Positions 3,338 through 32,077 of a stretch of DNA of 45,410 nt are shown here, piece after piece. The notes under the pieces are model-generated. The model ran no database searches. It saw only the letters and a list, made by a program, of their open reading frames with translations, and had not been told where the DNA came from. Positions within the stretch are counted from its first letter, which is position 1. The number at the start of each line of letters is the position of its first letter. This DNA comes from Puniceicoccales bacterium (GTDB lineage Bacteria > Verrucomicrobiota > Verrucomicrobiia > Opitutales > LL51): the NCBI GenBank assembly GCA_031278845.1, contig JAITJQ010000023.1:1-45410 (forward strand). Direction: 5' to 3'. A program made the translations under genes and the position numbers.

Positions 3338-3620
3338 GCGGCTGACAGTGTCAGCTTCCATACCGCTAGCGCGCGAACGTCAGCAACTGCCGATCCATTG
3401 CTGGCCAAAAGCCAGCTTTTTTGCTGGCGAAGCCAGTTCTATCACTGTCGACTGTGTCGACATCGCAGCCGGCCGTGCCGGCGCTGACAGTGTCAGCTTC
3501 CATACCGCTAGCGCGCGTGCTGAAGCCCTCCGTAGAGTTGGTTTGCCGCCATTGCCGACGAAGTCGGCTCAGTGGGAGTCGACACCGTCAGCCGGCGTTG
3601 ACATATTTAGATTTTGACTT
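3338..3620. repeat. GC-rich mosaic of short hairpin modules (multi-mini-hairpin repeat, locus 1)
   Basis: A chain of short perfect palindromes is present. GCTGACAgTGTCAGC occurs at 3341-3355 and again at 3483-3497, each followed by ttccataccgctagcgcgcg. The others are GCTGGCcaaaaGCCAGC at 3400-3416, CTGGCgaaGCCAG at 3424-3436, GTCGACtgtGTCGAC at 3447-3461, GCCGGCcgtGCCGGC at 3468-3482 and GCCGACgaaGTCGGC at 3554-3568. The modules recur at 4501-4590 (inverted) and 5149-5236 (direct). Confidence 0.85.
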
Positions 3621-4426
3621 GAGGTAGCAACACTTAACGCCCTTGAACCCAACGACAATTCCGGATTATATGTTTTCCTCATTAGCTCTTCCGCTGTATT
3701 GCCTTGAGGATCCCTAATATTGTTATTAGCAACGCCCTTCAATAAAATGAAGACCGGTACATTCTGTTTTGCGGCAGCCAAATGGAATGCTGTCATGCCT
3801 GTATTATCCAGAGCATTCACATTAATGCCGGGGGCATTTACCAATACTTCAGCAGTCTTTTGGGAATTTATCAGCCTATTGCAGCTATTGTCGTATCCGG
3901 AAAGCCATTCGGTGGCCCAATGGAGTGCTGTCCGGCCTTCACCATCCTGAGCATTCACAAGAATGCCGGGGGCATTTACCAACACGCTAACGACTTTTGG
4001 GTGGCCAGAGGCTGCGGCCAAATGGAGCGCTGTCAGGCCTTTACCATCCCGAGCATTCACAAGAATGCCGGGGGCATTTACCAACACGCGAGCGACTTCT
4101 GGGCATTCATTGGCTGCGGCCCAATGGAGTGCTGTTCGGCCTCCATTATCCTGAGCATTCACAAGAATGCCGGGTGTATTTACCAACACGCCAACGACCG
4201 CTGGGCGGTCAGAGGCTGCGGCCTCAATGAGCGCTGTACGGCCGATCCGACCTGTAACATTCACATTAACGCCTTGGGCTATTGCCGCCAGAACACCTGG
4301 TAGGTCGTCATTTGATGCAGCCGCAAGATACTGGCGCTCGGCAGCCCCCTCAAGATGGCTTATGCTCAATAAGCAACTACTCATTGCTACATATTTTATT
4401 GTATTTTTTATATTTATGTTTTTCAT
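3569..4426 (-). CDS. Ankyrin-repeat protein with N-terminal signal-like leader
   Basis: The 285-aa ORF has the leader MKNINIKNTIKYVAMSSCLLSIS. It contains repeated ANK units (GRTALHWAA...VLVNAPGILVNAQD). Three units are near-identical at DNA level with a 102-nt period (cattcacaagaatgccggg starting near 3952, 4054 and 4156). The last ~20 codons and the stop lie inside the hairpin mosaic. Confidence 0.85.
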   Translation of the reverse strand: MKNINIKNTIKYVAMSSCLLSISHLEGAAERQYLAAASNDDLPGVLAAIAQGVNVNVTGRIGRTALIEAAASDRPAVVGVLVNTPGILVNAQDNGGRTALHWAAANECPEVARVLVNAPGILVNARDGKGLTALHLAAASGHPKVVSVLVNAPGILVNAQDGEGRTALHWATEWLSGYDNSCNRLINSQKTAEVLVNAPGINVNALDNTGMTAFHLAAAKQNVPVFILLKGVANNNIRDPQGNTAEELMRKTYNPELSLGSRALSVATSSQNLNMSTPADGVDSH

Positions 4427-7152: not shown

Positions 7153-8973
7153 ATGGATTATAAGATTATAAGTAAAATAATGAGTGGGATGTTTTTGATA
7201 ACGCCACTTGTATCAAATGCCTGGGATAAGGTGATTTATCGTGATGATGTCATTGGGCCAGTGCTCTACACCCAGGAAGATAGTACTGCAATTGATTTGC
7301 AACTACGCGGTGTGCCTGCTGCGTCTGCTGCGTCTGCTGCGCCGTCTGCTGCGCCGCCTGCTGCGCCGCCTGCTGTGCCGCCTGCGTATACTAAGGCTGC
7401 ATATACAGGGATGGGCCTATGCCCTTTGCGGGATGTGCACGACAAAGCGACCATTTTCATTAATGCTGGTGCTAATCCTTTTGCTAGAACAAAAGGAGCG
7501 CATCTGGCAACTAACGATTATTGGCCCTATGAGTTAGTGTCGAACGGGCAAACATATAAATCAGCATCGCGGGCCTTTACTGAGAGATACACTCTTCCAG
7601 GGGTACCGATGTTTGTGCCGGCATATCCTCTTGCTAAGAATTTTTATTGGTATCCCGGGAAGGCCCCTGTTCCTCCTGCTGTTCCTGCTTCAAATTTTAG
7701 CGACTGTGGTCATGATAAGCAGGGTACTGAGGTTTTGAATTTTGGCGGCAATCTGTTGGCCTGCATCTCCATTGATACCCCGCCCCCCCCGGGAACGCCG
7801 CCAAAGCATCGATCGATTATGATTTACCGTTACAATGAAAATAACAGGTGGTTTTTATTCCCTGCGCCTGCGGCGATACAATATTGTGAGCTGAAGGATA
7901 ACAAGAGTGTGGATATTGAAGTTTTTACTAATAATGGTGAAGATTTCGTAGGGGGTCTAAGCGCCAACGATCAATTTAAGTATATAGGAGTTTATAATAA
8001 CAAATCAGGAACCGATAAAAAATTCCCGGCAATGACTGTGGCAGGTGATTCTACTGTTGTTCCTCCTCAGAAAGACCACGCTTTGTCAGCTTATGCAAGC
8101 CAGGGGTGGGCGAAATGCCCTGGAGGGCACTCAATGAGCTCCTACTACGGTCTTCCGGGAATAGCAATCAAGAACACGGATAACAGTAATTTTATTAAAA
8201 ACAAGATAGCGTGCAAGGGTCATGAGTTTATTGTGTATAATTTCTTTTTGAATGAACGATTGACAACTGAATTTCAAAATGCGTTATTTAAAGAGAGAAC
8301 TAATGGTTGCACAGGGATTGACGGTTGCACAGGGATTGACGGTTGCAATACTACAGGGTATGGCGACCTAGCCTCCTTATACGAAAAATTAAGATTGTTA
8401 GTATTGCAAAAAAACGTCTTATGGGGAAAACGCGAGGAGAAAGATCCAGATCGGACCAGTTCCGATTACATCAAAGACAAAGAGAAAAAAGATCAGGATG
8501 TTGGATTTATACGTGATATTCTAGCAGCCATATATGATATAGGTATACAAGAGCAAAAATCACAGATCAATTATTTAAATGGGGTGATTGATGCGACGCT
8601 CCGTCTCGAGCCACATAGACTTTTTGATCCATCATTACCATTGGGAAAAAAATCGGATGGTACTTCTCCGGGTAAAAGTTCTTCGAGTAAAAGTTCTCCG
8701 GATGATAGTTCTTCGGATGATAGTTCTCCGAGTAAAAGTTCTCCGGATAGACCTCCTCCTTTCGCTTCCACGGCCGCTTCGAAGAAAGCTGCTGAGCGAG
8801 AAAGGGCCAGGAAGAGAGAAGCTGCTGAGCTAAAAAGGATCGGGGAGATAGATGGTGAAAAGATACTGAAAAAGCCACTCACTTCCGAGGAACGGAAGGC
8901 AATAGATGAAAGAATAAAGAGGAGCAAGAGGGCAATATCTCGTTTAAATCGTCGCCCTCCCGCCAAGTCGTAA
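7153..8973 (+). CDS. Secreted hypothetical protein with Ala/Pro, GCTGID and Ser/Pro tandem repeats and a basic C-terminal tail
   Basis: The 606-aa ORF follows the RBS-like aaaggaaaaat. The signal-like N-terminus is MSGMFLITPLVSNA. Repeats are AASAASAAPSAAPPAAPPAVPPA, GCTGIDGCTGIDGC and SSSSKSSPDDSSSDDSSPSKSSPD. The C-terminus is Lys/Arg-rich (KKAAERERARKREAAELKR...KRSKRAISRLNRRPPAKS). I recognise no family. Confidence 0.75.
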   Translation: MDYKIISKIMSGMFLITPLVSNAWDKVIYRDDVIGPVLYTQEDSTAIDLQLRGVPAASAASAAPSAAPPAAPPAVPPAYTKAAYTGMGLCPLRDVHDKATIFINAGANPFARTKGAHLATNDYWPYELVSNGQTYKSASRAFTERYTLPGVPMFVPAYPLAKNFYWYPGKAPVPPAVPASNFSDCGHDKQGTEVLNFGGNLLACISIDTPPPPGTPPKHRSIMIYRYNENNRWFLFPAPAAIQYCELKDNKSVDIEVFTNNGEDFVGGLSANDQFKYIGVYNNKSGTDKKFPAMTVAGDSTVVPPQKDHALSAYASQGWAKCPGGHSMSSYYGLPGIAIKNTDNSNFIKNKIACKGHEFIVYNFFLNERLTTEFQNALFKERTNGCTGIDGCTGIDGCNTTGYGDLASLYEKLRLLVLQKNVLWGKREEKDPDRTSSDYIKDKEKKDQDVGFIRDILAAIYDIGIQEQKSQINYLNGVIDATLRLEPHRLFDPSLPLGKKSDGTSPGKSSSSKSSPDDSSSDDSSPSKSSPDRPPPFASTAASKKAAERERARKREAAELKRIGEIDGEKILKKPLTSEERKAIDERIKRSKRAISRLNRRPPAKS

Positions 8974-9253: not shown

Positions 9254-9925
9254 ATGACCATAGACCTCCTTTCCCTTTTCCCAGAAATGATCGACGGATT
9301 CCTGCAAACATCGATCATCGCCCGGGCCCAAAAAAATCAACTCCTCCATTGCCGTACCCATAACCTCCGCCAGTGGTCCACCGGTAAACACCGGAAAGTC
9401 GACGATCGACCCTTCGGCGGCGGCGCCGGAATGGTCATCCAACCGGATCCCCTCGCCCGGGCTATCAAAAATCTGAAAACAGAACAATCCTCCACCATTT
9501 ACCTCTGCCCAGACGGTACCCCATTTACAACTGCTATCGCCCAACGATTCGCCCAACAATCACACCTTATCCTCGTCTCCGGCCATTACGAGGGGATCGA
9601 TCAACGCATCCGCGATCGATATGTCGATTGGGAAATTTCCATCGGAGACTACGTCCTAACCAATGGTACCCTGGCTGCCGCAGTCGTTATCGATGCGATT
9701 TGCCGCCATATCCCCGGCGTTTTAGGTAACGCGGCTTCCCTGAAACAGGATTCCTTTAGCGACGGATTACTCTCCCCCCCACAGTACACCCAGCCAAGAA
9801 TCTTCGAGGGTATGGAAGTCCCCGATGTACTGTTGAGCGGTAACCACGCCGCCATTGACCAGTGGCGCCAACGACAACGTCTCGAACGTACCCGTCAAAA
9901 AAGACCCGACCTGCTCAATGGGTAG
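9254..9925 (+). CDS. trmD: tRNA (guanine37-N1)-methyltransferase
   Basis: The 223-aa ORF has the TrmD pattern: IDLLSLFPEM, DDRPFGGGAGMV, LVSGHYEGIDQRI, ISIGDYVLTNG and LLSGNHAAIDQWR. Confidence 0.9.
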   Translation: MTIDLLSLFPEMIDGFLQTSIIARAQKNQLLHCRTHNLRQWSTGKHRKVDDRPFGGGAGMVIQPDPLARAIKNLKTEQSSTIYLCPDGTPFTTAIAQRFAQQSHLILVSGHYEGIDQRIRDRYVDWEISIGDYVLTNGTLAAAVVIDAICRHIPGVLGNAASLKQDSFSDGLLSPPQYTQPRIFEGMEVPDVLLSGNHAAIDQWRQRQRLERTRQKRPDLLNG

Positions 9926-9987
9926 TGTTGTTTAAGAAAATGTTTGACTCCTGTCTTTCATTTTTCAATTATAGCAAATAGACAGGT

Positions 9988-10338
9988 ATGAATCCAATTA
10001 TTCAAGATATCACCGCGAAACAACTGGTTATCAATCGCGACAATTTTAAGGTTGGCGACGGAGTGAAGGTCCACGTCAAGGTCCGCGAAGGCGATAAGGA
10101 ACGCATTCAGATTTTTTCCGGTATCGTCATCGCTAAAAAACATTCCGGGATTACCGCTTCGTTTACCGTCCGCCGCGTAATTGCCGGTGAGGGTGTCGAG
10201 CGTGTCTTCCCGCTCCATTCGCCTAGCATTGCCCAAATCGAAGTCGAACGGGTCAGTGTTCCCATGCGCGCCAAACTCTACTATATCCGTAAACGCATCG
10301 GAAAGGAAGCGATGAAGGTGAAGGAAAGAAGGCGCTAG
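9988..10338 (+). CDS. rplS: 50S ribosomal protein L19
   Basis: The 116-aa ORF has FKVGDGVKVHVKVREGDKERIQIFSGIVIAKK and RVFPLHSPSIAQIEV. The trmD-rplS order is canonical. Confidence 0.95.
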   Translation: MNPIIQDITAKQLVINRDNFKVGDGVKVHVKVREGDKERIQIFSGIVIAKKHSGITASFTVRRVIAGEGVERVFPLHSPSIAQIEVERVSVPMRAKLYYIRKRIGKEAMKVKERRR

Positions 10339-10346
10339 TTTATACC

Positions 10347-10721
10347 ATGCTCGAGGAAATTGTTAAATCGGTAGTTTTTATTGCCCTACTCGCTTTGGGC
10401 GGATATTTTTTTGTGCTCTTCCGCCGAAAGGGTTGGTTTTTCCCGCAGATGGCTAGTGGTGATCGCTCCAGCCCCGACCACCTCTGCGTAACCGAACGCC
10501 TATCCATTGGGGGACGCCATTACGTTGCCGTTATCCAGTGTAACGGACAGAAGTTTCTCATAGGTGTTTCGCCCAATTCGATCACATCACTCGGTGTATT
10601 GCGCCCATACCGCAGGGAGAATACCAATAGATTCCGCAGTGAAAGTTTTGTCCATTGGGAGAATAATCGGTCGGCGAAGGAGCATGATATTCCGATGCAG
10701 GAGGTGTTGAATCGCCCGTGA
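10347..10721 (+). CDS. FliO-like single-pass membrane protein (tentative)
   Basis: The 124-aa ORF starts 8 nt after the rplS stop. It has one TM helix (VVFIALLALGGYFFVLF). The following LCVTERLSIGGRHYVAVIQCNGQKFLIGVSPNSITSL lines up with the conserved core of E. coli FliO as I recall it (LKISASASLGARERVVVVDVEDARLVLGVTAGQINLL). This is a memory-based assignment and needs an HMM check. Confidence 0.5.
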   Translation: MLEEIVKSVVFIALLALGGYFFVLFRRKGWFFPQMASGDRSSPDHLCVTERLSIGGRHYVAVIQCNGQKFLIGVSPNSITSLGVLRPYRRENTNRFRSESFVHWENNRSAKEHDIPMQEVLNRP

Positions 10722-10733
10722 CGCTGTATCCCT

Positions 10734-11612
10734 ATGGTGTCAATTATCGAACTGCTTGCGGAAGGGGTGAGCTTTCTGTATTCCAACGATATCGAGGGAT
10801 CAAAAAATGACGCGGAATGGCTCTTGGCCCATGTTTTGAATTGTTCGCGGCTGACGTTAAATTTAAATGGACAGACAACGATCAGTAAGGAGTCCGAAAC
10901 GCAGTTTCGAGAGCAATTGCTCCGGCGTGCTCGACGGGAACCGTTACAATATATTTTGGGCAAAGTCGATTTCCACGATATAAAATTAAAGGTCGATGCC
11001 CGCGTTTTCATTCCACGCGGAGAAACGGAAATACTTGTCGAATGGCTGATCAATCATATCAATAAATGCATGGGGAATACCTTTTCCGATGGGGAAAATT
11101 TTCCGTCCCTGAATATTCTGGACCTGGGAACGGGAAGTGGTGCGATCGCGATTGCCTTAGCGAAACGTTTCCCGAAGAGTTGCGTATTTGCCGTCGATCG
11201 ATCACCACTGGCGCTAGAGGTTACCCGCGAAAATATGCGGCGTAATGGCGTAAATAACTTGCAACTCTTCACATCGAATTGGTACAGCGCTTTCGAAGGC
11301 GATCAGGAACTGTTCGACATCATCGTTTCCAATCCTCCCTATTTGACGCGCCAGGAGTTTGATACGGCCCAGGACGAAGTGCGTCGCTATGAACCCGTTT
11401 CGGCACTCGTTGCCGAAGAAGAGGGTCTTCGAGATATCAGAATAATTCTCGATGGAGCCCAAAGATTTCTCAAAAAAGATGGTGTTGCCGCCGTTGAAAC
11501 GGGTATTTTACATCCCCAACGACTCCAAAAGATATATGGAAAACGTTTTAGGCAAACGGAAATTTTAAAGGACTTGAATCAGTTTGATCGTTTTTTTATC
11601 GCCTACCGTTGA
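10734..11612 (+). CDS. prmC: Release-factor glutamine N5-methyltransferase
   Basis: The 292-aa ORF has EPLQYILGKVDF, the SAM-binding motif ILDLGTGSGAIA and the catalytic motif VSNPPY. Confidence 0.9.
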   Translation: MVSIIELLAEGVSFLYSNDIEGSKNDAEWLLAHVLNCSRLTLNLNGQTTISKESETQFREQLLRRARREPLQYILGKVDFHDIKLKVDARVFIPRGETEILVEWLINHINKCMGNTFSDGENFPSLNILDLGTGSGAIAIALAKRFPKSCVFAVDRSPLALEVTRENMRRNGVNNLQLFTSNWYSAFEGDQELFDIIVSNPPYLTRQEFDTAQDEVRRYEPVSALVAEEEGLRDIRIILDGAQRFLKKDGVAAVETGILHPQRLQKIYGKRFRQTEILKDLNQFDRFFIAYR

Positions 11613-11668
11613 AGTTTAAGGGCTTGCTATTTGCTAAATTTTGAATAAAAGGACAACGGCTAGAGAGT

Positions 11669-11938
11669 ATGGATCAGAATTTTATTATTAGTATCACGGA
11701 GCAGGCAATGATACTCATTCTCATGCTATCGATGCCGCCGATTTTAGTGGCGACCTGTGTAGGACTAATAACGAGTTTGTTACAGGCTCTCACGCAGATT
11801 CAGGAACAAACGCTGGGGTTTGCTATCAAATTATTCTTTACCGTTACGGTTTTGATGCTATCGGCGTACTGGATCGGAGATGAGTTACTTGCATTTGCCA
11901 ATAGTTTATTTACTAATTTCCCAACAATTATTCACTAA
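11669..11938 (+). CDS. sctS: Type III secretion export apparatus protein SctS (YscS/FliQ family)
   Basis: The 89-aa ORF has two TM segments. LSMPPILVATCVGLITSLLQALTQIQEQTLGFAIKL closely matches the YscS-type signature QALTQIQEQTL. It matches less well to flagellar FliQ (QAATQINEMTL), both as recalled. Confidence 0.9.
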   Translation: MDQNFIISITEQAMILILMLSMPPILVATCVGLITSLLQALTQIQEQTLGFAIKLFFTVTVLMLSAYWIGDELLAFANSLFTNFPTIIH

Positions 11939-12726
11939 TGGAAACGGGATTAGAGCAGGTAACATCGATTTTATTCTTAATGATGATGTGTATCATCCGT
12001 TTAGCGGCGGCGTTATCATTGACGCCGGTATTCGCTAAACAATACATCATGGGGACAGGGCGTAACGTTGTGATTTTCGCCATGGCCTTACCTCTTTTCC
12101 ACGTCGTGTATCCGACCCTACCGACGACACAACTTCCGCTGCTCATTCTTTTTGTAACGATTTGTAAGGAGGTTATTATTGGTGCGATGTTGGGTTATTT
12201 ATCGGGATTTATTTTTTATGTTACGGATAGTGTTGGGTTTATTATTGACATTCAGCGTGGATCGTCGCAGGCCATGACATTTGATCCCATTGCTGGTTCT
12301 CAGACGTCGCTTTTGGGTAGTTTTTTGACCCAGATGATTGCGACGCTATTTTTTACGATGGGGGGTTTTTTATTTTTTCTCGGCGTGATTTATAAGACCT
12401 ATGTTGTCTGGCCTGTTTTTACGTTTTTTCCCTCCTTCAACGTCAATTTTCCAGCATTTATGATGTCATTTGCGGATGAGATTATGGAGGCAGTTTTTTG
12501 TTTTTCGGCGCCGATTTTAATCGTATTATTTCTTGCGGAGTTTGGGTTAGGGATGATCAGCCGTTTTGCGCCGCAACTAAATGTATTTTTTATGGCGATG
12601 CCGGTTAAGAGTTGGCTATCGGTGTTTTTTTTACTATTTTATTTTTCTCTGCTGGGGAAATTATTTCACTACCATTTTTTCACGCAGAGTAAATTATCAT
12701 TTTTCGTTGATCATTTTCTGAAATAG
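11938..12726 (+). CDS. sctT: Type III secretion export apparatus protein SctT (YscT/FliR family)
   Basis: The 262-aa ORF is a polytopic membrane protein. Its ATG overlaps the sctS stop (TAATG). Its position between sctS and sctU and its size fit the SctT/FliR family. Confidence 0.8.
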   Translation: METGLEQVTSILFLMMMCIIRLAAALSLTPVFAKQYIMGTGRNVVIFAMALPLFHVVYPTLPTTQLPLLILFVTICKEVIIGAMLGYLSGFIFYVTDSVGFIIDIQRGSSQAMTFDPIAGSQTSLLGSFLTQMIATLFFTMGGFLFFLGVIYKTYVVWPVFTFFPSFNVNFPAFMMSFADEIMEAVFCFSAPILIVLFLAEFGLGMISRFAPQLNVFFMAMPVKSWLSVFFLLFYFSLLGKLFHYHFFTQSKLSFFVDHFLK

Positions 12727-12755
12727 AGGTAATAGGGAGAGGAAGGGATAGCTAA

Positions 12756-13835
12756 ATGAGTGAGAAGACCGAGGAACCGACACCGAAGCGTATACGCGAT
12801 GCGCGCAACAAGGGAAATATTGCTAAGAGTCAGGACGTCAATTCGACGCTTACCCTAATCGGTGCCTTTTGCTATGTTGGGCTAGGCTGGAACCAGCATT
12901 TAGATAATATTTCGGAGATGATTTTAATTCCGACTCAATTTATTGGGCGGTGTAAAGATTTAAGTGGTTATACGGGGCAGGCACTTTGGAGTGTTTTGGT
13001 GAAGACGGGTAATATTGTTTTCCCGGCGATTTTCGTCGTTGCGCTGATGGGGATCATTGGAAATTTTGCGCAGGTGGGGATTTTATTTACGACGAAAACG
13101 ATACAACCTGATCTCAATAAAATCAATCCCATGTCGAAGGCGCAGCAGATGTTTTCCATGAAAACCATCGTCGAGCTACTGAAATCGACGGTAAAAATTC
13201 TTTTTTTAGGTTTTCTATTGATTGGTGTTGTAAAAGATGTATTTGACGATTTAATTTTGCTACCGTTTTGTAAGCTATCGGGTGTATTGAGCATCCTCGG
13301 TCCTATTATGACTAATTTTGCAAAGATGGTCATTTTCGCGTATATTGCGATGGCGGCTCTCGATTACTCCTATCAGAAATATAAGTGGAAAGAGGGGCTC
13401 AAAATGAGTAAGGATGAGGTCAAGCGGGAGTATAAGGAATCCGAGGGTGACGGGCAAATTAAGAGTAAGCGCAAGCAAATTCACAAGGAAATGATGGAAG
13501 AGGATCCGCAGCAGAAAACGAAGCAGTCTTCGGCCCTAGTAACCAATCCGGAGCACATTGCGATTGCGTTGCTTTACGATTTCGAGCGTCCTGTTTTTCC
13601 GTTACCGATCGTAACTGCGAAGGGGGTAGGTATCATTGCGGAGCAGATGATAGCGGTTGCGAAAAAGGAAGGGATACCGATTATGCGCAATGTACCTTTA
13701 GCGCACGCGTTATTGGATACGGCAAATGTTATGGAGTACATTCCCACGGAGTTAATGGCGCCGGTTGCGGAAGTTTTACGTTGGGTTAAGGACATGAAGG
13801 ACGAGCAAGCCCGAGGGAATGCGGCGTTTGTCTGA
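12756..13835 (+). CDS. sctU: Type III secretion substrate-specificity switch protein SctU (YscU/FlhB family)
   Basis: The 359-aa ORF has the N-terminus MSEKTEEPTPKRIRDARNKGNIAKSQDV and four TM segments. It also has KMSKDEVKREYKESEGDGQIKSKRKQIHKEM, the autocleavage-site position reading NPEH, and PLAHALL...APVAEVLRWV. It is collinear with YscU as I recall it. Confidence 0.9.
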   Translation: MSEKTEEPTPKRIRDARNKGNIAKSQDVNSTLTLIGAFCYVGLGWNQHLDNISEMILIPTQFIGRCKDLSGYTGQALWSVLVKTGNIVFPAIFVVALMGIIGNFAQVGILFTTKTIQPDLNKINPMSKAQQMFSMKTIVELLKSTVKILFLGFLLIGVVKDVFDDLILLPFCKLSGVLSILGPIMTNFAKMVIFAYIAMAALDYSYQKYKWKEGLKMSKDEVKREYKESEGDGQIKSKRKQIHKEMMEEDPQQKTKQSSALVTNPEHIAIALLYDFERPVFPLPIVTAKGVGIIAEQMIAVAKKEGIPIMRNVPLAHALLDTANVMEYIPTELMAPVAEVLRWVKDMKDEQARGNAAFV

Positions 13836-13960: not shown

Positions 13961-14098
13961 CGGAGAGAGGATAGGCTCAACTTCCCCACGAGAAAACAAC
14001 CACCAAGCATATGTTAGAGCTCTAGAACTATTCAGACGATACCGATCACACCTATTTAGATAGTAAAATTTAAACCTGAATAATTAGATAAAAAAGCG

Positions 14099-14126
14099 AA
14101 AGCACTTCCCGAAAGAGGTGCTTTTT
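14099..14126 (+). terminator. Rho-independent terminator module at the start of the ankyrin array unit
   Basis: AAAGCACTTC ccgaaa GAGGTGCTTT is followed by TTT. The same module follows ankyrin paralogs A and B (15354, 17041). Confidence 0.55.
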
Positions 14127-14212
14127 GGCTCTACAATTTACATGTCGCTTCACTTTCTGAAAAATTCCTCGAAAATAATTTTGAGTTCAATAAATGTTAT
14201 ATTAATATAATA

Positions 14213-14240
14213 TTGACAGCCTAGAAGCTTCACCTAATAT
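14213..14240 (+). promoter_or_regulatory. Sigma70-like promoter of ankyrin paralog A
   Basis: TTGACA (14213-14218), a 16-nt spacer and TAATAT (14235-14240) lie about 50 nt upstream of the start codon. Confidence 0.55.
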
Positions 14241-14291: not shown

Positions 14292-15320
14292 GTGAATAAA
14301 AGTTATAATATAAAAAATAAATTCCTGAAAAATATTGTACTCGGGAGCTTCCTATTTAGCAGTTTCGCGGGTACCTCTTCTCAACTCCAGGCCGCTCCTA
14401 TCCACGGTAGGGCAGCCCGAGGAGATGTTGTAGGGATACAACAATTGCTTAATGGGGGTGCTAATCCAAACCAAAGAGACGAGCATGGACAGACACCACT
14501 ACATTTCGCAAATACCCCAGATGTAATTGATATCCTGTGCGACTGGGGCGCCGATCCCAACGTAGCCAATAACTTTGGTTATACACCATTGCATTACAAA
14601 GTACGTGTCCTATTTGAGCCACACCTAAATGACCTAACACGCCCACAAAATAACAAAAGAAAAATACAATCACTGTTATCATGTATTAAACAATTACTAA
14701 GAAGAGGCGCCGATAAAAAGAAAATAAACAATGCAGGCTATTCCCCTGAATCAATTGTAGAGCAAGCATTTCAAACCAATGTGTTTTATGATGGCAATAC
14801 CCGTTATAATGTAAGCAGTAATGCGCTCCAAGCATGCATCGAAATCCGAGGATTATTCCCTAAATCGATTTATGATGCGGTGGCCGATAACGACATAATA
14901 GAAGCAAGACAGCTACTTGCTGCGGGTGTAGATCCCAATGGAATAAATCGGTTCGGATATGCACCACTGCATTACGCAACAACCCCAGAGATGGTTGAAC
15001 TATTGTGCAACGCAGGAGCCAATATCAATGGCCCCGATCAATGGGGCAACACTCCATTACATAGTGCTGTAGCCATCATCAATCCAAATTTAGAACTCAT
15101 AAGAAAATTATTGCAAAAAGGTGCTAGAATAGACATACCAAACCAACAAGGCGAAACTCCATTGTCAAAAGTAAAACGGACAATTCAAACTGGTGTAGTT
15201 ACCTATAGCCGATCTCATTTGGGCCTAATTACCATAGGGGAAGACGTCGCACCCCAAACATTTATTAGGGTTCAAGACTTATTCTGCTCATTCTCCCCAT
15301 CCCGATATAATATACAATAA
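14292..15320 (+). CDS. Ankyrin-repeat protein, family paralog A (two modules), Sec-type leader
   Basis: The 342-aa ORF has a GTG start after aaagaaaggtttaat. The leader is MNKSYNIKNKFLKNIVLGSFLFSSFAGTSSQLQA/AP. ANK units include GQTPLHFANTPDVIDILCDWGADPN and GYAPLHYATTPEMVELLCNAGANIN. Confidence 0.85.
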   Translation: MNKSYNIKNKFLKNIVLGSFLFSSFAGTSSQLQAAPIHGRAARGDVVGIQQLLNGGANPNQRDEHGQTPLHFANTPDVIDILCDWGADPNVANNFGYTPLHYKVRVLFEPHLNDLTRPQNNKRKIQSLLSCIKQLLRRGADKKKINNAGYSPESIVEQAFQTNVFYDGNTRYNVSSNALQACIEIRGLFPKSIYDAVADNDIIEARQLLAAGVDPNGINRFGYAPLHYATTPEMVELLCNAGANINGPDQWGNTPLHSAVAIINPNLELIRKLLQKGARIDIPNQQGETPLSKVKRTIQTGVVTYSRSHLGLITIGEDVAPQTFIRVQDLFCSFSPSRYNIQ

Positions 15321-15546: not shown

Positions 15547-17004
15547 ATGAATAAAAGTTATAATATAAAAAATAAATTCCTGAAAAATATTGTACTCGGG
15601 AGCTTCCTATTTGGCAGTTTCGCGGGTACCTCTTCTCAACTCCAGGCCGCTCCTATCCACAGTAGGGCAGCCCGAGGAGATGTTGTAGGGATACAACAAT
15701 TGCTTAGTGGGGGTGCTAATCCAAACCAAAAAGACAATTTGGAACAGACACCACTACATTTCGCAAGTACCCCAGGTGTAATTGATATCCTGTACACCTG
15801 GGGCGCCGATCCCAACGCAGCCAATAATTTTGGTGATACACCATTGCATTGCAAAGTACGTACCCTATTGGCAACAAACCTACAAGGTAACGAAAAAAAA
15901 ATACAATCACTGTTATCATGTATTAAACAATTACTACAAATAGGCGCCGATAAAAAGAAAATAAACAATGCAGGCTATTCCCCTGAATCAATTGTAGAAC
16001 AAGCATTTCAAACCAATGTGTTTTATGATGGCAATATCCGTCGTGATATAAGCAGTGATGCACGCCAAGCATGCATCGAAATCCGAGGATTATTTTCCCC
16101 ATTACAGGCCAAATCGATTTATGATGCGGTAGCCGATAACGACATAGAAGGAGTGCGTCGGTTACTTGATGCGGGTGTAGATCCCAATAAAATACATGAT
16201 CGATTCGGATGTGCACCACTGCATATCGTACAAACCCCAGAGATGGTTGAACTACTGTGCGGCAGAGGAGCCAATATCAATGGCCCCGATCAATGGGGTA
16301 ACACTCCATTGCTTTGTGCCCTATCTTTCGGCAGTCCGAATTTAAAACTCATAGAAAAATTATTACAAAAAGGCGCTAGAATAGATATACTAAACCAACG
16401 AGGTCAAACCCCAGTTTCGCTAGTACAACAAGCAATCGACAAACGTATAGTTAGCGGTGGTCGGCCTAGTGATGCCTCAATTTCTTTAAACGAAAACGAA
16501 CACAAAACATACATTACAGTCAAACAACTATTATTTTCTCAAAATCGGACTAGATCACTCCATAATGTGATGCTCGATGATAACATAATAGAAGCAAGAC
16601 AGCTACTTGCTGCGGGTGTAGATCCCAATGGGATGGATCAGTTCGGAGGTACACCACTGCAGTATGCAACAACCCAGGAGATGATTGAACTATTGTGCAA
16701 CGCAGGAGCCAAGATCAACGGCCCCGATCAATGGGGCAACACTCCATTACATAGTGCTGTGACCATCAATCCAGATTTAGAACTCATAAGAAAATTATTG
16801 CAAAAAGGTGCTAGAATAGACATACCAAACCAACAAGGCGAAACTCCATTGTCAAAAGTAAGACAGGCAATTCAAGTTGGTATAGTTAGCGGTGGCCGAC
16901 CTCATTCGCCCTCAAATGCCATACAGGAAGACGCCGTACGCCAAACATTTATTGGGGTTCAAGACTTATTCCGCTCATTCTACCCATCCCAATGTAATAT
17001 ATAA
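15547..17004 (+). CDS. Ankyrin-repeat protein, family paralog B (three modules), Sec-type leader
   Basis: The 485-aa ORF differs from paralog A at only about 4 positions over the first ~185 nt by manual comparison. Its last module is also near-identical to the last module of A. An extra central module is present. Confidence 0.85.
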   Translation: MNKSYNIKNKFLKNIVLGSFLFGSFAGTSSQLQAAPIHSRAARGDVVGIQQLLSGGANPNQKDNLEQTPLHFASTPGVIDILYTWGADPNAANNFGDTPLHCKVRTLLATNLQGNEKKIQSLLSCIKQLLQIGADKKKINNAGYSPESIVEQAFQTNVFYDGNIRRDISSDARQACIEIRGLFSPLQAKSIYDAVADNDIEGVRRLLDAGVDPNKIHDRFGCAPLHIVQTPEMVELLCGRGANINGPDQWGNTPLLCALSFGSPNLKLIEKLLQKGARIDILNQRGQTPVSLVQQAIDKRIVSGGRPSDASISLNENEHKTYITVKQLLFSQNRTRSLHNVMLDDNIIEARQLLAAGVDPNGMDQFGGTPLQYATTQEMIELLCNAGAKINGPDQWGNTPLHSAVTINPDLELIRKLLQKGARIDIPNQQGETPLSKVRQAIQVGIVSGGRPHSPSNAIQEDAVRQTFIGVQDLFRSFYPSQCNI

Positions 17005-17157: not shown

Positions 17158-17553
17158 GTGCTTCGGTTACTTGATACGGGTGCAAATCCCAATGCAATGG
17201 ATCGGTGCGGATATACACCATTGCATGCTGCGAATACCCCTGAAATCGTTGATCTGTTACTCAATACCGAAGCCGATATCAATCATCCTAACCAATTGGG
17301 CGATACTCCATTACGCATCGCCGTAGCCGATCGCCATCCGAAATTAGAATGCATAAAAGCATTATTGCGACAAGGCGCCGACAAAGATATACAGGATGCA
17401 AAAGGCAAAACCTCCTTAGAAGCGGTACAGGACGCAATTGAATTTGGTGTCGTTGACAGCAGTCGCTCTACCTCAACAAAAATAGATAACAACGCACGCA
17501 AAGTATACGCTGAAGTCCTGGAACTATTCTTCTTTCCCAAACATCTCTGGTAA
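17158..17553 (+). pseudogene. 5-prime-truncated ankyrin paralog C (lacks promoter, RBS and leader)
   Basis: The 131-aa ORF from a GTG is homologous to residues ~47-180 of paralog D (LLDTGANPNAMDRCGYTPLHAANTPEIVDLL...YAEVLELFFFPKHLW). The upstream intergenic module stops at ...cgcaaatacaa and joins directly to mid-ANK sequence. The equivalent point before paralog D (...caccaatacaa) continues into the promoter and leader. Confidence 0.6.
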
Positions 17554-17775: not shown

Positions 17776-18318
17776 ATGAATAAAAGTTATAACATAAAAA
17801 ATAAATTCCTGAAAAATATTGCACTCGGGAGCTTCCTATTTAGCGGTTTCGCGGGTACATTCTCCCAACTTCAAGCCGGCCCGCTCCATGGTGCGGTAAC
17901 AAATGAAGACATAGATGAAGTGTATCGATTACTTGAAGCAGGTGAAGACCCTAACGCAATAGATAATCGGTTTGGATATACTCCATTGCATCTTGCAAAC
18001 ACCCCTGAAATGGTTAATTTGTTGTGCAGCAAAGGAGCTCATATCAACAACTCTGGTCGATGGGGCAGTACGCCACTACGTGAAGCCGTATCCGCCTACT
18101 ATCCGAATTTAGAACTCATAAAAGCACTATTGCGACAAGGCGCTAACAAAGACATATCGGATGTAAGAGGTAAAAACTCCGTAACCGCCGTACGGGACGC
18201 AATCGAATTGGGTATAATTCAAGGCAACCACTATGCCACTGTATTAAAAATAGATGACGATTCGCGCCTAGCATACGCTGAAGTCCTAAAACTATTTTTC
18301 CTCCCCCAATGTCTCTGA
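17776..18318 (+). CDS. Ankyrin-repeat protein, family paralog D (one module), Sec-type leader
   Basis: The 180-aa ORF has the leader MNKSYNIKNKFLKNIALGSFLFSGFAGTFSQLQA. ANK units include GYTPLHLANTPEMVNLLCSKGAHIN. The C-terminus is YAEVLKLFFLPQCL. Confidence 0.85.
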   Translation: MNKSYNIKNKFLKNIALGSFLFSGFAGTFSQLQAGPLHGAVTNEDIDEVYRLLEAGEDPNAIDNRFGYTPLHLANTPEMVNLLCSKGAHINNSGRWGSTPLREAVSAYYPNLELIKALLRQGANKDISDVRGKNSVTAVRDAIELGIIQGNHYATVLKIDDDSRLAYAEVLKLFFLPQCL

Positions 18319-27894: not shown

Positions 27895-28737
27895 TTATTT
27901 GGAAGGAGTTTTTGTATCAACTTTTGGTTCTTCTTTTTTGAGTTCTTCTTTTTCCGGCGTTGGCTGATTAATTTCATGGACCTCAATGAAAAACTCTAAA
28001 GTATGCCCATCACCATAAGCCAGTTCAGGAGGAATCCAAGCTTGAATTGTTCCGCCTTCGCCAATCAATTGGATTACTTCAGCCACACCGAGGGGGAGCA
28101 TAAATAGGTAAATAAGTTCTCCAAGTCCATTGGTATTCTCAATAATTTTGCCATCGATTGACCTTACTGTGAAACCAACTTTGACACTGTCATCCGGACC
28201 AGCACGCTTACTATTGCCCTGCTTAGTAATTTTATAAAGCGATCCCGAAACTGTTTTTTGGACGTCTGGTTCCTTTTGTTTTGCTGCTAGAAATGCTTCG
28301 TCGCGCTTTTTAATCTCTGTAATATAAATTTCTTTTTGTTTCTCTAAAAATCGTTGAAACTCTTCAATTTCTTTCTGATTAAGTTCGGGAAGTTCCTCGC
28401 CATTGAGTGCAGCTTTTAGGCCAAACATAAGTTGCTCTTTTTGCTGTAGATCCAAGCCAAATTCAAGAGCTCCCGTATTGTCAATGATCATGTGACCGAG
28501 CACCTGTAGATAGTGATTCTCCCGGGCTTTTTGGTCAACAACACTCACCGTAGGAGTAGCTAGTAAATCTGAGGCACCTTTCGCGGGTGATAACACTGGG
28601 ACTACGGGATTAGGCGCGGTACCTTTGGCAGGCGATACGGGTGCCTGTACTTGGACCGCAGGATCCTGTAATGCATATAACGACAATCCACTCCAAAGCG
28701 TGGATACAATAAGTAAATCTTTCCAATTATTCATCAT
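27895..28737 (-). CDS. Mip-like FKBP-type peptidyl-prolyl isomerase homolog (divergent FKBP domain)
   Basis: The 280-aa ORF has a signal-like N-terminus and a helical FKBP_N-like region. The C-terminal domain reads DDSVKVGFTVRSIDGKIIENT...IQAWIPPELAYGDGHTLEFFIEVHEI. It ends in a Lys/Glu-rich tail. Confidence 0.65.
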   Translation of the reverse strand: MMNNWKDLLIVSTLWSGLSLYALQDPAVQVQAPVSPAKGTAPNPVVPVLSPAKGASDLLATPTVSVVDQKARENHYLQVLGHMIIDNTGALEFGLDLQQKEQLMFGLKAALNGEELPELNQKEIEEFQRFLEKQKEIYITEIKKRDEAFLAAKQKEPDVQKTVSGSLYKITKQGNSKRAGPDDSVKVGFTVRSIDGKIIENTNGLGELIYLFMLPLGVAEVIQLIGEGGTIQAWIPPELAYGDGHTLEFFIEVHEINQPTPEKEELKKEEPKVDTKTPSK

Positions 28738-30988: not shown

Positions 30989-31486
30989 ATGGAAAACTGT
31001 TTAGATACTTTTAGAACGTATATTAAAGCGCTCGGCGAAAAATTGAAAATCGAAGATTTGGATTTGGATGAAAATAACGATTGTTATCTCGCTTTCGATG
31101 GGAAATATTTTGTCAAATGTTCCGTCGATGCGGAAAAAGCACAAGTCCGCCTTCTCGCCTATATCGGTTCATTACCCGGAGATAAGGAGATTTTTTACCG
31201 CGGTATTCTCGAAAGTTGTCACTTCTGGTGCGATACGGCCGGTGCAAATATTTCGCTTGATCCCACCGATCGTACGCTTTTACTCGTACAATATTGCGAT
31301 ATGAGTATGCTCGATAGCGACGCTTTTTATAATGCTTTGGAGAAATTCGTCAACGCGATGGAACATTGGGATACGAAACGCCTTGAGGAGTGGATGGCAA
31401 TGACCAGTAATGAAACCGAAGCGAGTAGTGCGGTAGCTGGTCCGGACGATGGGGGTGTGCCGGGAATGATGATGTTCGGTGTCTAA
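30989..31486 (+). CDS. Class I type III secretion chaperone-like protein (CesT/SycE-like)
   Basis: The 165-aa acidic ORF has the typical chaperone layout. This includes FRTYIKALGEKLKIEDLDLDENNDCYLAFDGKYFVKCSVD, RLLAYIGSLPGD, ILESCHFWCDTAGANISLDP and FYNALEKFVNAMEHW. This is a pattern-level call made from memory. Confidence 0.6.
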   Translation: MENCLDTFRTYIKALGEKLKIEDLDLDENNDCYLAFDGKYFVKCSVDAEKAQVRLLAYIGSLPGDKEIFYRGILESCHFWCDTAGANISLDPTDRTLLLVQYCDMSMLDSDAFYNALEKFVNAMEHWDTKRLEEWMAMTSNETEASSAVAGPDDGGVPGMMMFGV

Positions 31487-31492
31487 TGAAAA

Positions 31493-32077
31493 TTGGAAAT
31501 GTCCGCTGCTAATGCGATTGTTAATACGAGTGGCTTGGGATGTTGTCCCGTTTTATCTTCGGAGCGCCTGATGTTGCAAACGATACAGGAAAAAGACTTA
31601 AGCGCCATTGTTAATCTGCTATCCGATTATGAAACCGTCTGGATGTTGACCTATGCTCCCTGGCCCTATACGGTTCAGGAGGCCGTACTTTGGGTTAACT
31701 ATGTCAATAACATGTGTACGATGGGTAGAGGTTGTTTCTGGGGAATTCATGGAGAGGGAAATGTATTCATCGGGACGGCCGGTTTGTCGATTATTCCGGA
31801 GCATGAAAAGGCAGAGTTACACTATTGGCTTGGGAGAGCGTATTGGGGGCAGGGGTATGGGACGGAGATTGCCCGTCGCATTATGAGCTACGCCTTTGAA
31901 GATCTAAAAGTGAATCGCCTTGAAGTAAACCATATGGTACGGAATACCCGCTCACAGCACGTCATTGAAAAATGTGGATTTAAGTTTGAAGGGACATTGC
32001 GCTCCTACGTAAAACGTTTTGATCAATTTGAGGATGTAAAGTTTTATAGTCGATTGCGTGAAGAATTTTTAACATAA
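31493..32077 (+). CDS. GNAT family N-acetyltransferase (RimJ/RimL-like), paralog 1
   Basis: The 194-aa ORF has ERLMLQTIQEKDL, the GTAGLSIIPEHEKAELHYWLGRAYWGQGYGTE motif, VNRLEVNHMVRNTRSQHVIEKCGFKFEGTLR and an acetyl-CoA-binding Q/RxxGxG/A-type context. It has a TTG start at 31493, with an ATG at 31499. Confidence 0.8.
   Translation: MEMSAANAIVNTSGLGCCPVLSSERLMLQTIQEKDLSAIVNLLSDYETVWMLTYAPWPYTVQEAVLWVNYVNNMCTMGRGCFWGIHGEGNVFIGTAGLSIIPEHEKAELHYWLGRAYWGQGYGTEIARRIMSYAFEDLKVNRLEVNHMVRNTRSQHVIEKCGFKFEGTLRSYVKRFDQFEDVKFYSRLREEFLT

What the first reader, a model, noticed from the sequence alone, without database searches (positions are those of the whole stretch)
10347..13835. Injectisome export-gate genes sctS-sctT-sctU attached to a trmD-rplS-prmC operon, with a FliO-like ORF and no sctR
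trmD, rplS, a 124-aa FliO-like ORF, prmC, sctS, sctT and sctU all lie on one strand with gaps of 8, 12, 56, -1 and 29 nt, so they look like a single transcription unit. In canonical T3SS and flagellar loci the order is (fliO)-sctR/fliP-sctS/fliQ-sctT/fliR-sctU/flhB. Here the slot where sctR should sit is occupied by the release-factor methyltransferase gene prmC, and no SctR/FliP-like ORF exists anywhere in the window. SctS and SctU look injectisome-like (Ysc-like signatures), whereas FliO is regarded as a flagellum-specific assembly factor. A FliO-like protein next to injectisome gate genes would therefore be unusual. The export gate cannot assemble without SctR, so either the gene lies elsewhere or the system is non-canonical.
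Basis: partly seen in the sequence, partly recalled or inferred. Interest (0 to 1): 0.7.

Follow-up and report, generated by a model that had tools for sequence, protein, structure and literature searches.

The report
Orphan FliO gene beside injectisome sctSTU
In an endosymbiont-like verrucomicrobial (Puniceicoccales) genome, a conserved FliO-family membrane-protein gene lies between rplS and prmC, next to a stand-alone sctS-sctT-sctU injectisome module that has its own conserved promoter-like element and no sctR nearby; this adds a lineage to the recently reported non-flagellar FliO homologues and is not a new kind of system.

Summary
trmD, rplS, a 124-aa FliO-family ORF (Pfam E=2e-10), prmC, sctS, sctT and sctU lie on one strand with the stated gaps. 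SctS/T/U pass the injectisome models and fail the flagellar ones. No SctR is encoded in the window.

- The window comes from a Puniceicoccales lineage known only from MAGs. There, sctS-T-U sits in at least four different housekeeping contexts, never next to sctR. The missing sctR therefore reflects dispersed T3SS genes, as in Chlamydia. prmC is not occupying an "sctR slot". I could not locate sctR.
- The FliO-like gene is an orphan under purifying selection (dN/dS 0.05-0.29). It starts 1-8 nt after rplS in 12 relatives. Other Puniceicoccales carry it beside recA/rsmE with no T3SS genes near.
- A promoter-like element upstream of sctS is invariant across 13 loci, and another is conserved upstream of rplS. 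This suggests two units, rplS-fliO-prmC and sctSTU, rather than one operon.
- A 2025 paper already reports FliO homologues in non-flagellar T3SS operons and in non-flagellated Chlamydiia.

My best guess is that the protein chaperones injectisome gate assembly. This is untested.

The parts
9254..9925 (+). trmD (tRNA m1G37 methyltransferase)
   Evidence: Pfam tRNA_m1G_MT E=1e-61. Syntenic in all relatives of the clade.
9944..9972 (+). Promoter-like element upstream of rplS (TTGACT-17 nt-AATTAT)
   Evidence: Consensus scan. The TTGAC[TA] box, preceded by an A-rich stretch, is conserved at the same position in 15 related loci. Function is inferred, not shown.
9988..10338 (+). rplS (ribosomal protein L19)
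   Evidence: Pfam Ribosomal_L19 E=4e-40.
10347..10721 (+). FliO-family gene. The 124-aa protein has an N-terminal membrane helix, a small four-strand beta domain and a variable tail.
   Evidence: Pfam FliO E=2e-10, 41.1 bits, above the gathering score of 22. It is below the NCBIfam FliO equivalog cut-off, 34.6 < 55.25. There are 18 homologues, all from Puniceicoccales/Verrucomicrobiota MAGs, with invariant LLALGGYFF and GGR..AV..C..Q.FL.G motifs. AF2 model: helix 2-28, strands 47-85, disordered 91-124. dN/dS is 0.05-0.29. It starts 1-8 nt after the rplS stop in 12 loci.
10734..11612 (+). prmC (release-factor N5-glutamine methyltransferase)
   Evidence: NCBIfam TIGR03534 261.6 bits, cut-off 199.1. 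Pfam PrmC_N + MTS.
11623..11650 (+). Conserved promoter-like element upstream of sctS (CTTGCTA-N16-TAAAA)
   Evidence: Columns C-T-T-G-C-x-A and T-A-x-x-A are invariant in a 10-locus alignment of the prmC-sctS spacer. The element is found in 13 of 13 clade loci, once with a different spacing, although dS between the deep lineages is saturated. The pattern occurs only twice in the window, against 0.35 expected. Function is inferred.
11669..11938 (+). sctS (injectisome export-gate subunit)
   Evidence: NCBIfam SctS equivalog 96.9 bits, cut-off 76.5; FliQ is below its cut-off. dN/dS is 0-0.06.
11938..12726 (+). sctT (injectisome export-gate subunit); overlaps sctS by 1 nt
   Evidence: NCBIfam SctT equivalog 205.8 bits, cut-off 163; FliR 117.8 < 168.6. 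dN/dS is 0.05-0.09.
12756..13835 (+). sctU (export switch protein). The autocleavage motif reads NPEH instead of NPTH.
   Evidence: NCBIfam SctU equivalog 371.2 bits, cut-off 358; FlhB 295.3 < 349.3. It is 45% identical to the SctU of a canonical injectisome cluster in a Verrucomicrobiales contig. The NPEH motif starts at residue 264.
14095..14130 (+). Terminator-like hairpin followed by UUUUU, about 260 nt downstream of sctU
   Evidence: MFE -15.6 kcal/mol, z = -3.4 against shuffles. Sequence read. A TTGACA-16-TAATAT promoter-like site follows at 14213-14240, before the first ankyrin gene.
30989..31486 (+). CesT-family type III secretion chaperone; the only other T3SS-related gene in the window
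   Evidence: Pfam CesT E=4.5e-17. CesT genes also lie near gyrB in the syntenic loci L002, L004 and L009.

Best explanation
The window comes from a Puniceicoccales (Verrucomicrobiota) bacterium with the genomic look of an intracellular symbiont. Its injectisome genes are dispersed among housekeeping genes, as in Chlamydia.

Two neighbouring units are present. The first is rplS-fliO-like-prmC, driven by a conserved TTGACT promoter-like box, with trmD just upstream. The FliO-like gene starts 1-8 nt after rplS. The second is sctS-sctT-sctU, preceded by its own conserved promoter-like element and followed by a hairpin-U5 terminator. Some read-through from prmC into sctS is possible because no terminator lies between them.

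sctR is not missing from the system. It is simply encoded elsewhere, because sctS-T-U without sctR is the rule across the whole order. This step is inferred; I did not find the gene.

The FliO-like protein is a real, selected, bitopic membrane protein of the FliO family in a lineage with no flagellar gene in any fetched locus. It most likely does for the injectisome gate what FliO does in flagella. There it chaperones assembly or stability of the FliP/SctR-FliR/SctT core in Salmonella, and of FlhB/SctU in Campylobacter. This functional step is inferred from homology and from one lineage-specific adjacency. It has not been shown.
For: Anatomy and family assignments.

Lineage: all 18 FliO-like homologues and the top ~90 SctU homologues come from Puniceicoccales MAGs or unnamed metagenome contigs. 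One is a complete 878-kb genome, CP095464.1, with the same gene order. The window also carries many ankyrin-repeat genes and an apparently split transporter gene.

sctS-T-U without sctR occurs in four contexts. These are after prmC (window clade), before ksgA (L011), after a dCMP deaminase (L012/13) and after a 5'-3' exonuclease (L039). An SctR HMM hits none of the window or the 38 fetched Puniceicoccales-type loci. It hits only the Verrucomicrobiales locus L014, at 1.6e-110.

Injectisome type: the closest outgroup SctU sits in a canonical cluster with the needle protein, SctJ, L, N, O, P, Q, R, S and T, and a translocon gene.

Selection: dN/dS is 0-0.09 for SctS/T/U, 0.05-0.29 for FliO-like and 0.11-0.21 for PrmC. 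The gate genes are therefore in use, which requires SctR.

Two units: conserved promoter-like elements, a terminator-like hairpin after sctU, and no terminator-like site between prmC and sctS.

FliO fold: membrane helix plus four strands.

Precedent: FliO homologues occur in non-flagellar T3SS operons of Myxococcota and several Pseudomonadota. An orphan FliO occurs in non-flagellated Chlamydiia. FliO affects FlhB stability in C. jejuni (all PMC12403147). The Chlamydia T3SS is encoded by 10 operons in 5 loci and may mix in flagellar-type parts (PMC2734247).
Against: - sctR was never located in this clade. My one homologue search with a verrucomicrobial SctR was swamped by closer relatives of the query.
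- The adjacency of FliO-like and sctSTU is confined to the sub-clade whose SctU is at least ~69% identical to the window's. A relative at 63% (L039) lacks it.
- In a second Puniceicoccales group the FliO-like gene is monocistronic between recA and rsmE, with no T3SS gene within 10 kb.
- In L007/L025 and L024, rplS-fliO-prmC is kept with no sctSTU downstream.
- The tightest and most conserved link of the FliO-like gene is to rplS, not to sctS.
- The FliO match is below the NCBIfam equivalog cut-off.
- The promoter and terminator calls are sequence patterns plus conservation, not transcription data.
- Whether these genomes lack flagellar genes entirely was not tested genome-wide.
Confidence: 0.5

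Rival explanations
1. The FliO-like protein has nothing to do with the injectisome. It would be a relic of a lost flagellar system recruited to another membrane or housekeeping role. It is expressed with rplS and prmC, and its position next to sctSTU would be an accident of genome rearrangement in one sub-clade.
For: - The rplS-FliO gap is 1-8 nt in all 12 loci, whereas sctS has its own conserved promoter-like element.
- The gene is an orphan between recA and rsmE in a second Puniceicoccales group.
- rplS-fliO-prmC is retained without sctSTU downstream in L007/L025 and L024.
- sctSTU occurs in three other contexts without FliO.
- The authors who found the Chlamydiia orphan FliO proposed a non-T3SS role for it (PMC12403147).
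Against: - The only experimentally known FliO functions concern the type III export gate (PMC7911332, PMC12403147).
- Every lineage in which I saw this FliO subfamily is one where Puniceicoccales SctU genes are also abundant.
- T3SS genes in these genomes are scattered anyway, so lack of adjacency says little.
- FliO homologues inside non-flagellar T3SS operons exist elsewhere (PMC12403147).
Confidence: 0.3
2. trmD-rplS-fliO-prmC-sctS-sctT-sctU is one operon, so FliO-like and the gate genes are co-expressed by design, with prmC sitting where sctR used to be.
For: All genes are on one strand with short gaps. There is no terminator-like site between prmC and sctS. The order is conserved in more than 10 genomes, some with only ~41-46% FliO identity. 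The order fliO-x-sctS-sctT-sctU mimics fliO-fliP-fliQ-fliR-flhB.
Against: A conserved promoter-like element lies directly upstream of sctS. The arrangement is absent from the next relatives. sctR is absent beside sctS in every Puniceicoccales context, so the R/STU split predates this arrangement or is independent of it. Synteny is high throughout these reduced genomes, so conserved order alone is weak evidence.
Confidence: 0.12
3. The export gate is non-canonical: these bacteria lack SctR altogether, and the FliO-like protein or another factor substitutes for it.
For: No SctR was found in the window or in roughly 0.5 Mb of related loci.
Against: The SctR5-SctS4-SctT1 core is universal in structurally studied systems (PMC7064499, PMC7911332). 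A 124-aa bitopic protein cannot replace a four-helix pentameric subunit. Only ±10 kb around two gene families was sampled, which is about 2% of each genome. Strong purifying selection on SctS/T/U implies a working gate.
Confidence: 0.03
4. The locus is a rearranged flagellar export operon (fliO ... fliQ-fliR-flhB).
For: The FliO family hit. The best full-length PDB matches of SctU are FlhB chains.
Against: The flagellar equivalog models all fall below their cut-offs while the injectisome models pass. The nearest outgroup homologues lie in a canonical injectisome cluster with needle and translocon genes. The PDB ranking reflects which full-length chains have been solved; YscU C-domains score 115 bits over 137 residues.
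Confidence: 0.02

Closest known systems
Flagellar FliO (Salmonella/E. coli fliOPQR operon)
   Same: Pfam family PF04347. Small bitopic protein with an N-terminal membrane helix followed by a short conserved beta-rich domain. Encoded on the same strand and upstream of FliQ/FliR/FlhB-type genes.
   Different: No fliP/sctR next to it. The neighbouring gate genes are injectisome-type. It is transcriptionally tied to rplS. It falls below the NCBIfam FliO equivalog cut-off. No flagellar genes were seen in any fetched locus.
FliO homologues inside non-flagellar T3SS operons of Myxococcota and some Pseudomonadota (PMC12403147, 2025)
   Same: A FliO-family gene associated with non-flagellar type III secretion genes in organisms or loci without flagellar genes.
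   Different: There the gene is reported as part of the T3SS operon. Here it sits in a ribosomal/translation-factor unit next to a partial (S-T-U only) module that has its own promoter-like element. The phylum differs (Verrucomicrobiota, order Puniceicoccales), and the paper and its held supplements do not mention it.
Orphan FliO of non-flagellated Chlamydiia, in an operon with a YbjN-family protein, MqnB and MqnD (PMC12403147)
   Same: A PVC-superphylum, host-associated, non-flagellated lineage with a dispersed injectisome and a FliO homologue in a non-T3SS neighbourhood.
   Different: The neighbours differ: rplS/prmC or recA/rsmE here. Orthology between the two was not tested because I had no chlamydial sequence. 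Lead from memory only: the YbjN-family neighbour may correspond to the T3SS chaperone Mcsc/CT260 (PMC2734247 describes Mcsc). If so, a T3SS link would also apply to the chlamydial gene.
Chlamydial dispersed T3SS organisation (10 operons in 5 loci; cdsR-S-T and cdsU-V apart; PMC2734247)
   Same: Injectisome core genes split into small groups embedded among housekeeping genes, each apparently with a sigma-70-like promoter.
   Different: The break points differ. Chlamydia keeps R-S-T together and U with V. Puniceicoccales keep S-T-U together and R elsewhere.

Membership tests
FliO family (Pfam PF04347) | Significant match to the family profile above the curated threshold | tested here: met
   41.1 bits against a gathering score of 22, E=2e-10, residues 25-88. 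The group-2 relative L033 scores 36.6 bits. The subfamily profile merges into 699 FliO-like representatives at E<1e-3.
FliO family (NCBIfam TIGR03500 equivalog 'flagellar biosynthetic protein FliO') | Score above the equivalog cut-off | tested here: not met
   34.6 bits < 55.25. It is a homologue but does not qualify as a functional equivalog of flagellar FliO.
FliO family | Bitopic architecture: one N-terminal transmembrane helix followed by a small conserved domain | tested here: met
   Invariant hydrophobic LLALGGYFF segment. AF2 gives helix 2-28 and four strands 47-85, with pLDDT 69-93 in these parts. No solved FliO structure is available for comparison.
FliO family | Encoded beside fliP/sctR in a type III export operon | tested here: not met
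   No SctR/FliP in the window or within 10 kb of any FliO-like gene in 30+ loci.
FliO family | Promotes assembly or stability of FliP-FliR (or FlhB) | not testable with these tools
   Needs biochemistry or genetics.
Non-flagellar T3SS export apparatus (SctS, SctT, SctU) | Pass the injectisome equivalog models and not the flagellar ones | tested here: met
   Scores against cut-offs: SctS 96.9/76.5, SctT 205.8/163, SctU 371.2/358. FliQ 76/88.9, FliR 117.8/168.6, FlhB 295.3/349.3.
Non-flagellar T3SS export apparatus | Nearest relatives outside the lineage lie in complete injectisome clusters | tested here: met
   L014 (Verrucomicrobiales; SctU 45% identical) carries sctD, needle, sctI, J, L, N, O, P, Q, R, S, T, U, CesT chaperones and an SseC-like translocon gene. 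For several other non-Puniceicoccales hits, the SctR and SctU hits report the same longest-contig length, which suggests one contig.
Non-flagellar T3SS export apparatus | SctU autocleavage motif NPTH | tested here: inconclusive
   The window has NPEH. N, P and H are kept and T is replaced by E. This is shared by 47 of 120 SctU homologues, essentially the window clade and its sister group. More distant Puniceicoccales and the outgroups have NPTH. Whether NPEH still cleaves is unknown.
Non-flagellar T3SS export apparatus | sctR-sctS-sctT-sctU contiguous | tested here: not met
   sctR is absent beside sctS in all four Puniceicoccales contexts.
Non-flagellar T3SS (whole system) | Full core set (SctC, D, J, N, Q, R, V) present in the genome | not testable with these tools
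   Only ±10 kb around FliO-like and SctU genes could be fetched. The window adds one CesT chaperone.
Flagellar fliOPQR-flhB operon | FliQ/FliR/FlhB equivalogs and fliP present | tested here: not met

The most novel reading that the evidence does not exclude
Non-flagellated, host-associated PVC bacteria (Puniceicoccales here, Chlamydiia in PMC12403147) may have kept FliO as the one flagellar-era assembly factor that their dispersed injectisomes still need. It would act as a membrane chaperone nucleating the SctR5-SctT1 gate (or stabilising SctU) when sctR is translated from a different locus than sctS/T/U. In this clade its synthesis would be coupled to ribosomal protein L19. That would make FliO a general type III gate assembly factor rather than a flagellum-specific one.
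Probability: 0.3. Interest if true: 0.6.

Novelty: new member of a known kind. Interest (0 to 1): 0.4.

Why it matters
FliO was long taught to be flagellum-specific, with injectisomes assembling their SctR-SctT core without help. A 2025 survey broke that rule for Myxococcota, some Pseudomonadota and, as an orphan gene, Chlamydiia.

This locus adds a further PVC lineage: small-genome Puniceicoccales. The termite-gut origin of these MAGs is my inference from the isolate codes. Here a FliO homologue under purifying selection persists with no flagellar gene in sight, and in one sub-clade it lies one gene away from sctSTU.

If the protein serves the injectisome, it offers a compact natural case for asking what FliO does at the export gate. 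If it does not, it is evidence for a second, T3SS-independent role of the FliO fold.

The 'missing sctR' itself is not remarkable. It shows that Puniceicoccales, like Chlamydia, have dispersed injectisome genes, but broken at a different point (R | S-T-U).

Tried and rejected
1. Locating sctR in the clade. tblastn and an HMM against the window and 39 fetched loci found nothing. A database search with the Verrucomicrobiales SctR returned only closer relatives of the query (61-99% identity, none from Puniceicoccales) in the 120 rows shown.
2. FliO-SctR fusion as the origin of the FliO-like gene. The profile search of 1.84 billion representatives gave no long FliO+FliP proteins near the top; the closest hits are 80-190 aa. 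I dropped this idea.
3. Naming the nearest relatives of the FliO-like subfamily. The top 20 representative clusters are Puniceicoccales or unnamed metagenome proteins. No link to Chlamydiia or Myxococcota FliO could be shown or excluded.
4. Metagenome scans. One with a third FliO-like subgroup found nothing.
5. Structure comparison. The AF2 model (pLDDT 65.6) has no significant PDB neighbour, best E=0.33. This is uninformative because no FliO structure has been solved.
6. PDB sequence search with SctU. Full-length FlhB chains ranked above SpaS. I judged this an effect of which chains exist, not evidence for a flagellar origin.
7. Looking for the sctS promoter-like motif elsewhere in the window as a possible T3SS regulon signal. 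There was only one other match, inside a gene on the other strand, so there is no regulon evidence.
8. Literature searches for the genome, the samples, and 'Puniceicoccales + type III secretion + endosymbiont' found no paper.
9. The last contig look-up (P0031) landed on a contig that begins at sctU. It said nothing about the upstream context.

Full report
**1. What is there**

The + strand of the window carries seven genes:
- trmD, 9254-9925
- rplS, 9988-10338
- a 124-aa ORF, 10347-10721
- prmC, 10734-11612
- sctS, 11669-11938
- sctT, 11938-12726
- sctU, 12756-13835

The gaps are 62, 8, 12, 56, -1 and 29 nt.

Pfam confirms every assignment. The 124-aa ORF hits only FliO (PF04347), at E=2e-10 and 41.1 bits against a gathering score of 22. 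The match covers residues 25-88, which is the soluble part rather than the hydrophobic helix.

NCBIfam places SctS, SctT and SctU above the cut-offs of the injectisome equivalogs and below those of FliQ, FliR and FlhB. The FliO-like ORF scores 34.6 bits on the flagellar FliO equivalog, below its cut-off of 55.25.

The rest of the window was scanned ORF by ORF. It holds housekeeping genes, five ankyrin-repeat genes and one CesT-family chaperone (30989-31486). It has no FliP/SctR and no other T3SS core gene. tblastn with a verrucomicrobial SctR (best E=0.24) and an HMM built from 120 SctR sequences (best E=2) confirm that no sctR or sctR remnant is in the 45 kb.

**2. Whose genome**

All 18 database homologues of the FliO-like protein come from Puniceicoccales/Verrucomicrobiota MAGs or unnamed metagenome contigs. 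So do the first ~90 SctU homologues.

A scan of one genome per species found 24 FliO-like loci, 23 titled Puniceicoccales MAGs and one an uncultured Verrucomicrobia MAG. One of them, isolate Cc175_bin33, is 96% identical to the window.

A complete 878-kb genome (CP095464.1) and a ~757-kb contig belong to the same clade. The small genomes, the ankyrin genes and an apparently split transporter gene suggest an intracellular symbiont. This fits the roughly 1-Mb 'Nucleococcus cluster' symbionts of termite-gut protists described in PMC8204192. That affiliation is my inference from MAG isolate codes and genome size. It was not tested.

**3. The missing sctR**

In the window clade the order trmD-rplS-fliO-prmC-sctS-sctT-sctU is conserved down to 41% FliO, 43% PrmC and 69% SctU identity.

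More distant Puniceicoccales keep sctS-sctT-sctU as a three-gene block in other places:
- before ksgA (L011; SctU 54% identical)
- after a dCMP deaminase, next to Mu-like prophage genes (L012/L013; 47%)
- after a 5'-3' exonuclease gene (L039; 63%)

None of these has sctR within 10 kb.

By contrast, the closest SctU I examined outside the order sits in a textbook injectisome cluster in a Verrucomicrobiales contig (L014). That cluster runs sctD, needle, sctI, J, L, N, O, P, Q, R, S, T, U, with CesT chaperones and an SseC-like translocon gene. For several other non-Puniceicoccales hits, the SctR and SctU hits report the same longest-contig length, which suggests a shared contig.

So the R | S-T-U break is a trait of the order. 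prmC does not 'replace' sctR.

SctS/T/U are under strong purifying selection (dN/dS 0-0.09). I therefore expect a working gate, and hence an sctR elsewhere. I could not find it. My last homologue search was swamped by closer relatives of the query. Chlamydia offers the precedent of T3SS genes spread over 10 operons in 5 loci (PMC2734247).

**4. The FliO-like gene**

It is a real gene.
- dN/dS is 0.05-0.29 in six comparisons with unsaturated dS, similar to prmC at 0.11-0.21.
- The alignment shows an invariant hydrophobic LLALGGYFF segment, a conserved core (L..GGR..AV..C..Q.FL.G) and a free-running C-terminal tail.
- AlphaFold2 predicts a helix (residues 2-28), four strands (47-85) and a disordered tail. 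This is the expected FliO layout. No solved structure exists to compare it with.

A profile search of 1.84 billion representatives shows a small subfamily: 17 clusters below 1e-10. It grades into the general FliO family, with 699 clusters below 1e-3. No FliO-SctR fusions appear near the top. The nearest clusters are again Puniceicoccales or unnamed.

A second Puniceicoccales group (12 MAGs, 33-40% identical) carries the gene as a lone ORF between recA and rsmE. It still matches Pfam FliO (5e-9), and no T3SS gene lies within 10 kb.

Within the window clade, L007/L025 and L024 keep rplS-fliO-prmC but have no sctSTU downstream.

The gene is therefore an 'orphan' FliO of the order. Its adjacency to sctSTU is lineage-specific.

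**5. Transcription units**

- The FliO-like gene starts 1-8 nt after the rplS stop in all 12 loci examined. The FliO-prmC spacing varies from -35 to +86 nt.
- Upstream of rplS, a TTGAC[TA] box preceded by an A-rich stretch is conserved in 15 loci (window 9944-9972).
- In the prmC-sctS spacer, CTTGC[TCA]A followed 16-17 nt later by TA[AGC]AA is invariant in 13 loci. The surrounding spacer has diverged, and synonymous sites between the deep lineages are saturated. In the window this element is at 11623-11650, about 20-45 nt before the sctS start codon.
- sigma-70-like boxes can also be read by eye upstream of sctS in L039, L011 and L012 (sequences). This is my reading, not a tool call.
- No terminator-like site lies between prmC and sctS.
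- A hairpin followed by UUUUU lies about 260 nt after sctU (14095-14130; -15.6 kcal/mol, z=-3.4). A good TTGACA-16-TAATAT site precedes the next gene.

The most economical reading is two units, rplS-fliO-prmC and sctS-T-U, with possible read-through. This is sequence inference only.

**6. Mechanism**

Shown: family membership, architecture, selection, genomic contexts and conserved non-coding elements.

Inferred: the FliO-like protein acts on the injectisome gate. The known activities of FliO are to promote a stable FliP5-FliR1 core in Salmonella (PMC7911332) and to stabilise FlhB in C. jejuni (PMC12403147). FliO homologues have now been found inside non-flagellar T3SS operons of Myxococcota and several Pseudomonadota, and as an orphan in non-flagellated Chlamydiia (PMC12403147).

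In a lineage with an injectisome, and with no flagellar gene in any of about 40 loci, the gate is the only known client. A chaperone might be especially useful when SctR and SctS/T/U are made from different loci. I put this at about 0.5 including the structural part, and about 0.35-0.4 for the functional claim alone.

The main rival (0.3) is a T3SS-independent role. It is supported by the tight rplS coupling and by the orphan contexts.

**7. Novelty**

The 2021 review statement that no FliO homologue exists in virulence T3SS (PMC7911332) would have made this striking. The 2025 PNAS paper (PMC12403147) removes most of the surprise.

That paper and its held supplements do not mention Puniceicoccales, Opitutales or Verrucomicrobiota proper. 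I found no paper on these genomes. The finding is therefore a new member of a recently recognised kind (non-flagellar FliO homologues), plus a descriptive point about T3SS gene dispersal in Puniceicoccales.

Interest is moderate at 0.4. It would be higher if co-occurrence or interaction data tied PVC orphan FliO proteins to injectisome assembly.

Noticed in passing
window 13545-13556 (SctU residues 264-267): The SctU autocleavage motif is NPEH instead of the canonical NPTH. 47 of 120 SctU homologues share NPEH, essentially the window clade and its sister group, with occasional NPAH, NPGH or NPQH. More distant Puniceicoccales and all outgroups keep NPTH. Whether cleavage and substrate switching still work is unknown.
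   Followed up: partly
window 14292-15320, 15547-17004, 17158-17553, 17776-18318 (+) and 3569-4426 (-): There are five ankyrin-repeat genes. The first two downstream of sctU are tandem paralogues with nearly identical, signal-peptide-like N-termini (MNKSYNIKNKFLKNIVLGSFLF...QLQAAP). The syntenic position in relatives holds marC and unrelated ORFs instead. They are candidate secreted host-interaction proteins.
   Followed up: partly
window 7153-8973 (+): A 606-aa ORF rich in Pro/Ala/Ser low-complexity runs, with no Pfam match, lies between atpA and trmD. ORFs at the same position in relatives differ greatly in length: 572, 706 and 1849 aa. It is a fast-evolving protein and possibly an effector.
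   Followed up: no
window 30989-32967 (+): A CesT-family type III chaperone gene is followed directly by two GNAT (Acetyltransf_3) genes of 194 and 275 aa. This may be a chaperone-effector arrangement.
   Followed up: no
window 41139-42331 (+): A sodium:dicarboxylate symporter gene appears split or truncated. The 221-aa ORF matches only profile positions 181-386 of 387. The 172-aa ORF just upstream has no match. This may be a pseudogene, in keeping with genome reduction.
   Followed up: no
window 25614-27701 (+) and 27895-28737 (-): A 695-aa protein has a weak class-3 lipase match (E=2e-4, just below the gathering score). A 280-aa protein has only the N-terminal dimerisation domain of Mip-type FKBP isomerases. 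Both types are known among host-interaction factors of intracellular bacteria.
   Followed up: no
L007/L025 4507-5753 and L024 81-1327: Within the window clade, two MAG lineages keep rplS-fliO-prmC but have no sctS-T-U downstream; dnaX and a TPR gene follow instead. Their FliO-like protein keeps the core domain but loses most of the tail (94 aa in L007). Whether sctSTU moved or was lost there is unknown.
   Followed up: partly
L012/L013 1500-6500: In a distant Puniceicoccales relative, the sctS-T-U block lies about 2.4 kb from Mu-like phage genes: terminase, Portal_Mu, Mu-like prohead protease and cement protein.
   Followed up: no
L014 11088-11372: The canonical Verrucomicrobiales injectisome cluster has an extra 94-aa ORF right after sctU. 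It is a second copy of the SctU C-terminal domain, 56% identical to residues 266-347.
   Followed up: no
L026-L038 (e.g. L033 9926-10294): Group-2 FliO-like proteins carry a conserved extra N-terminal segment of about 25 residues (e.g. MCNLPITSILGEALATPTQIS...) before the same LLALGGYFF membrane helix. A third subgroup of 146-192 aa has still longer N-termini.
   Followed up: no
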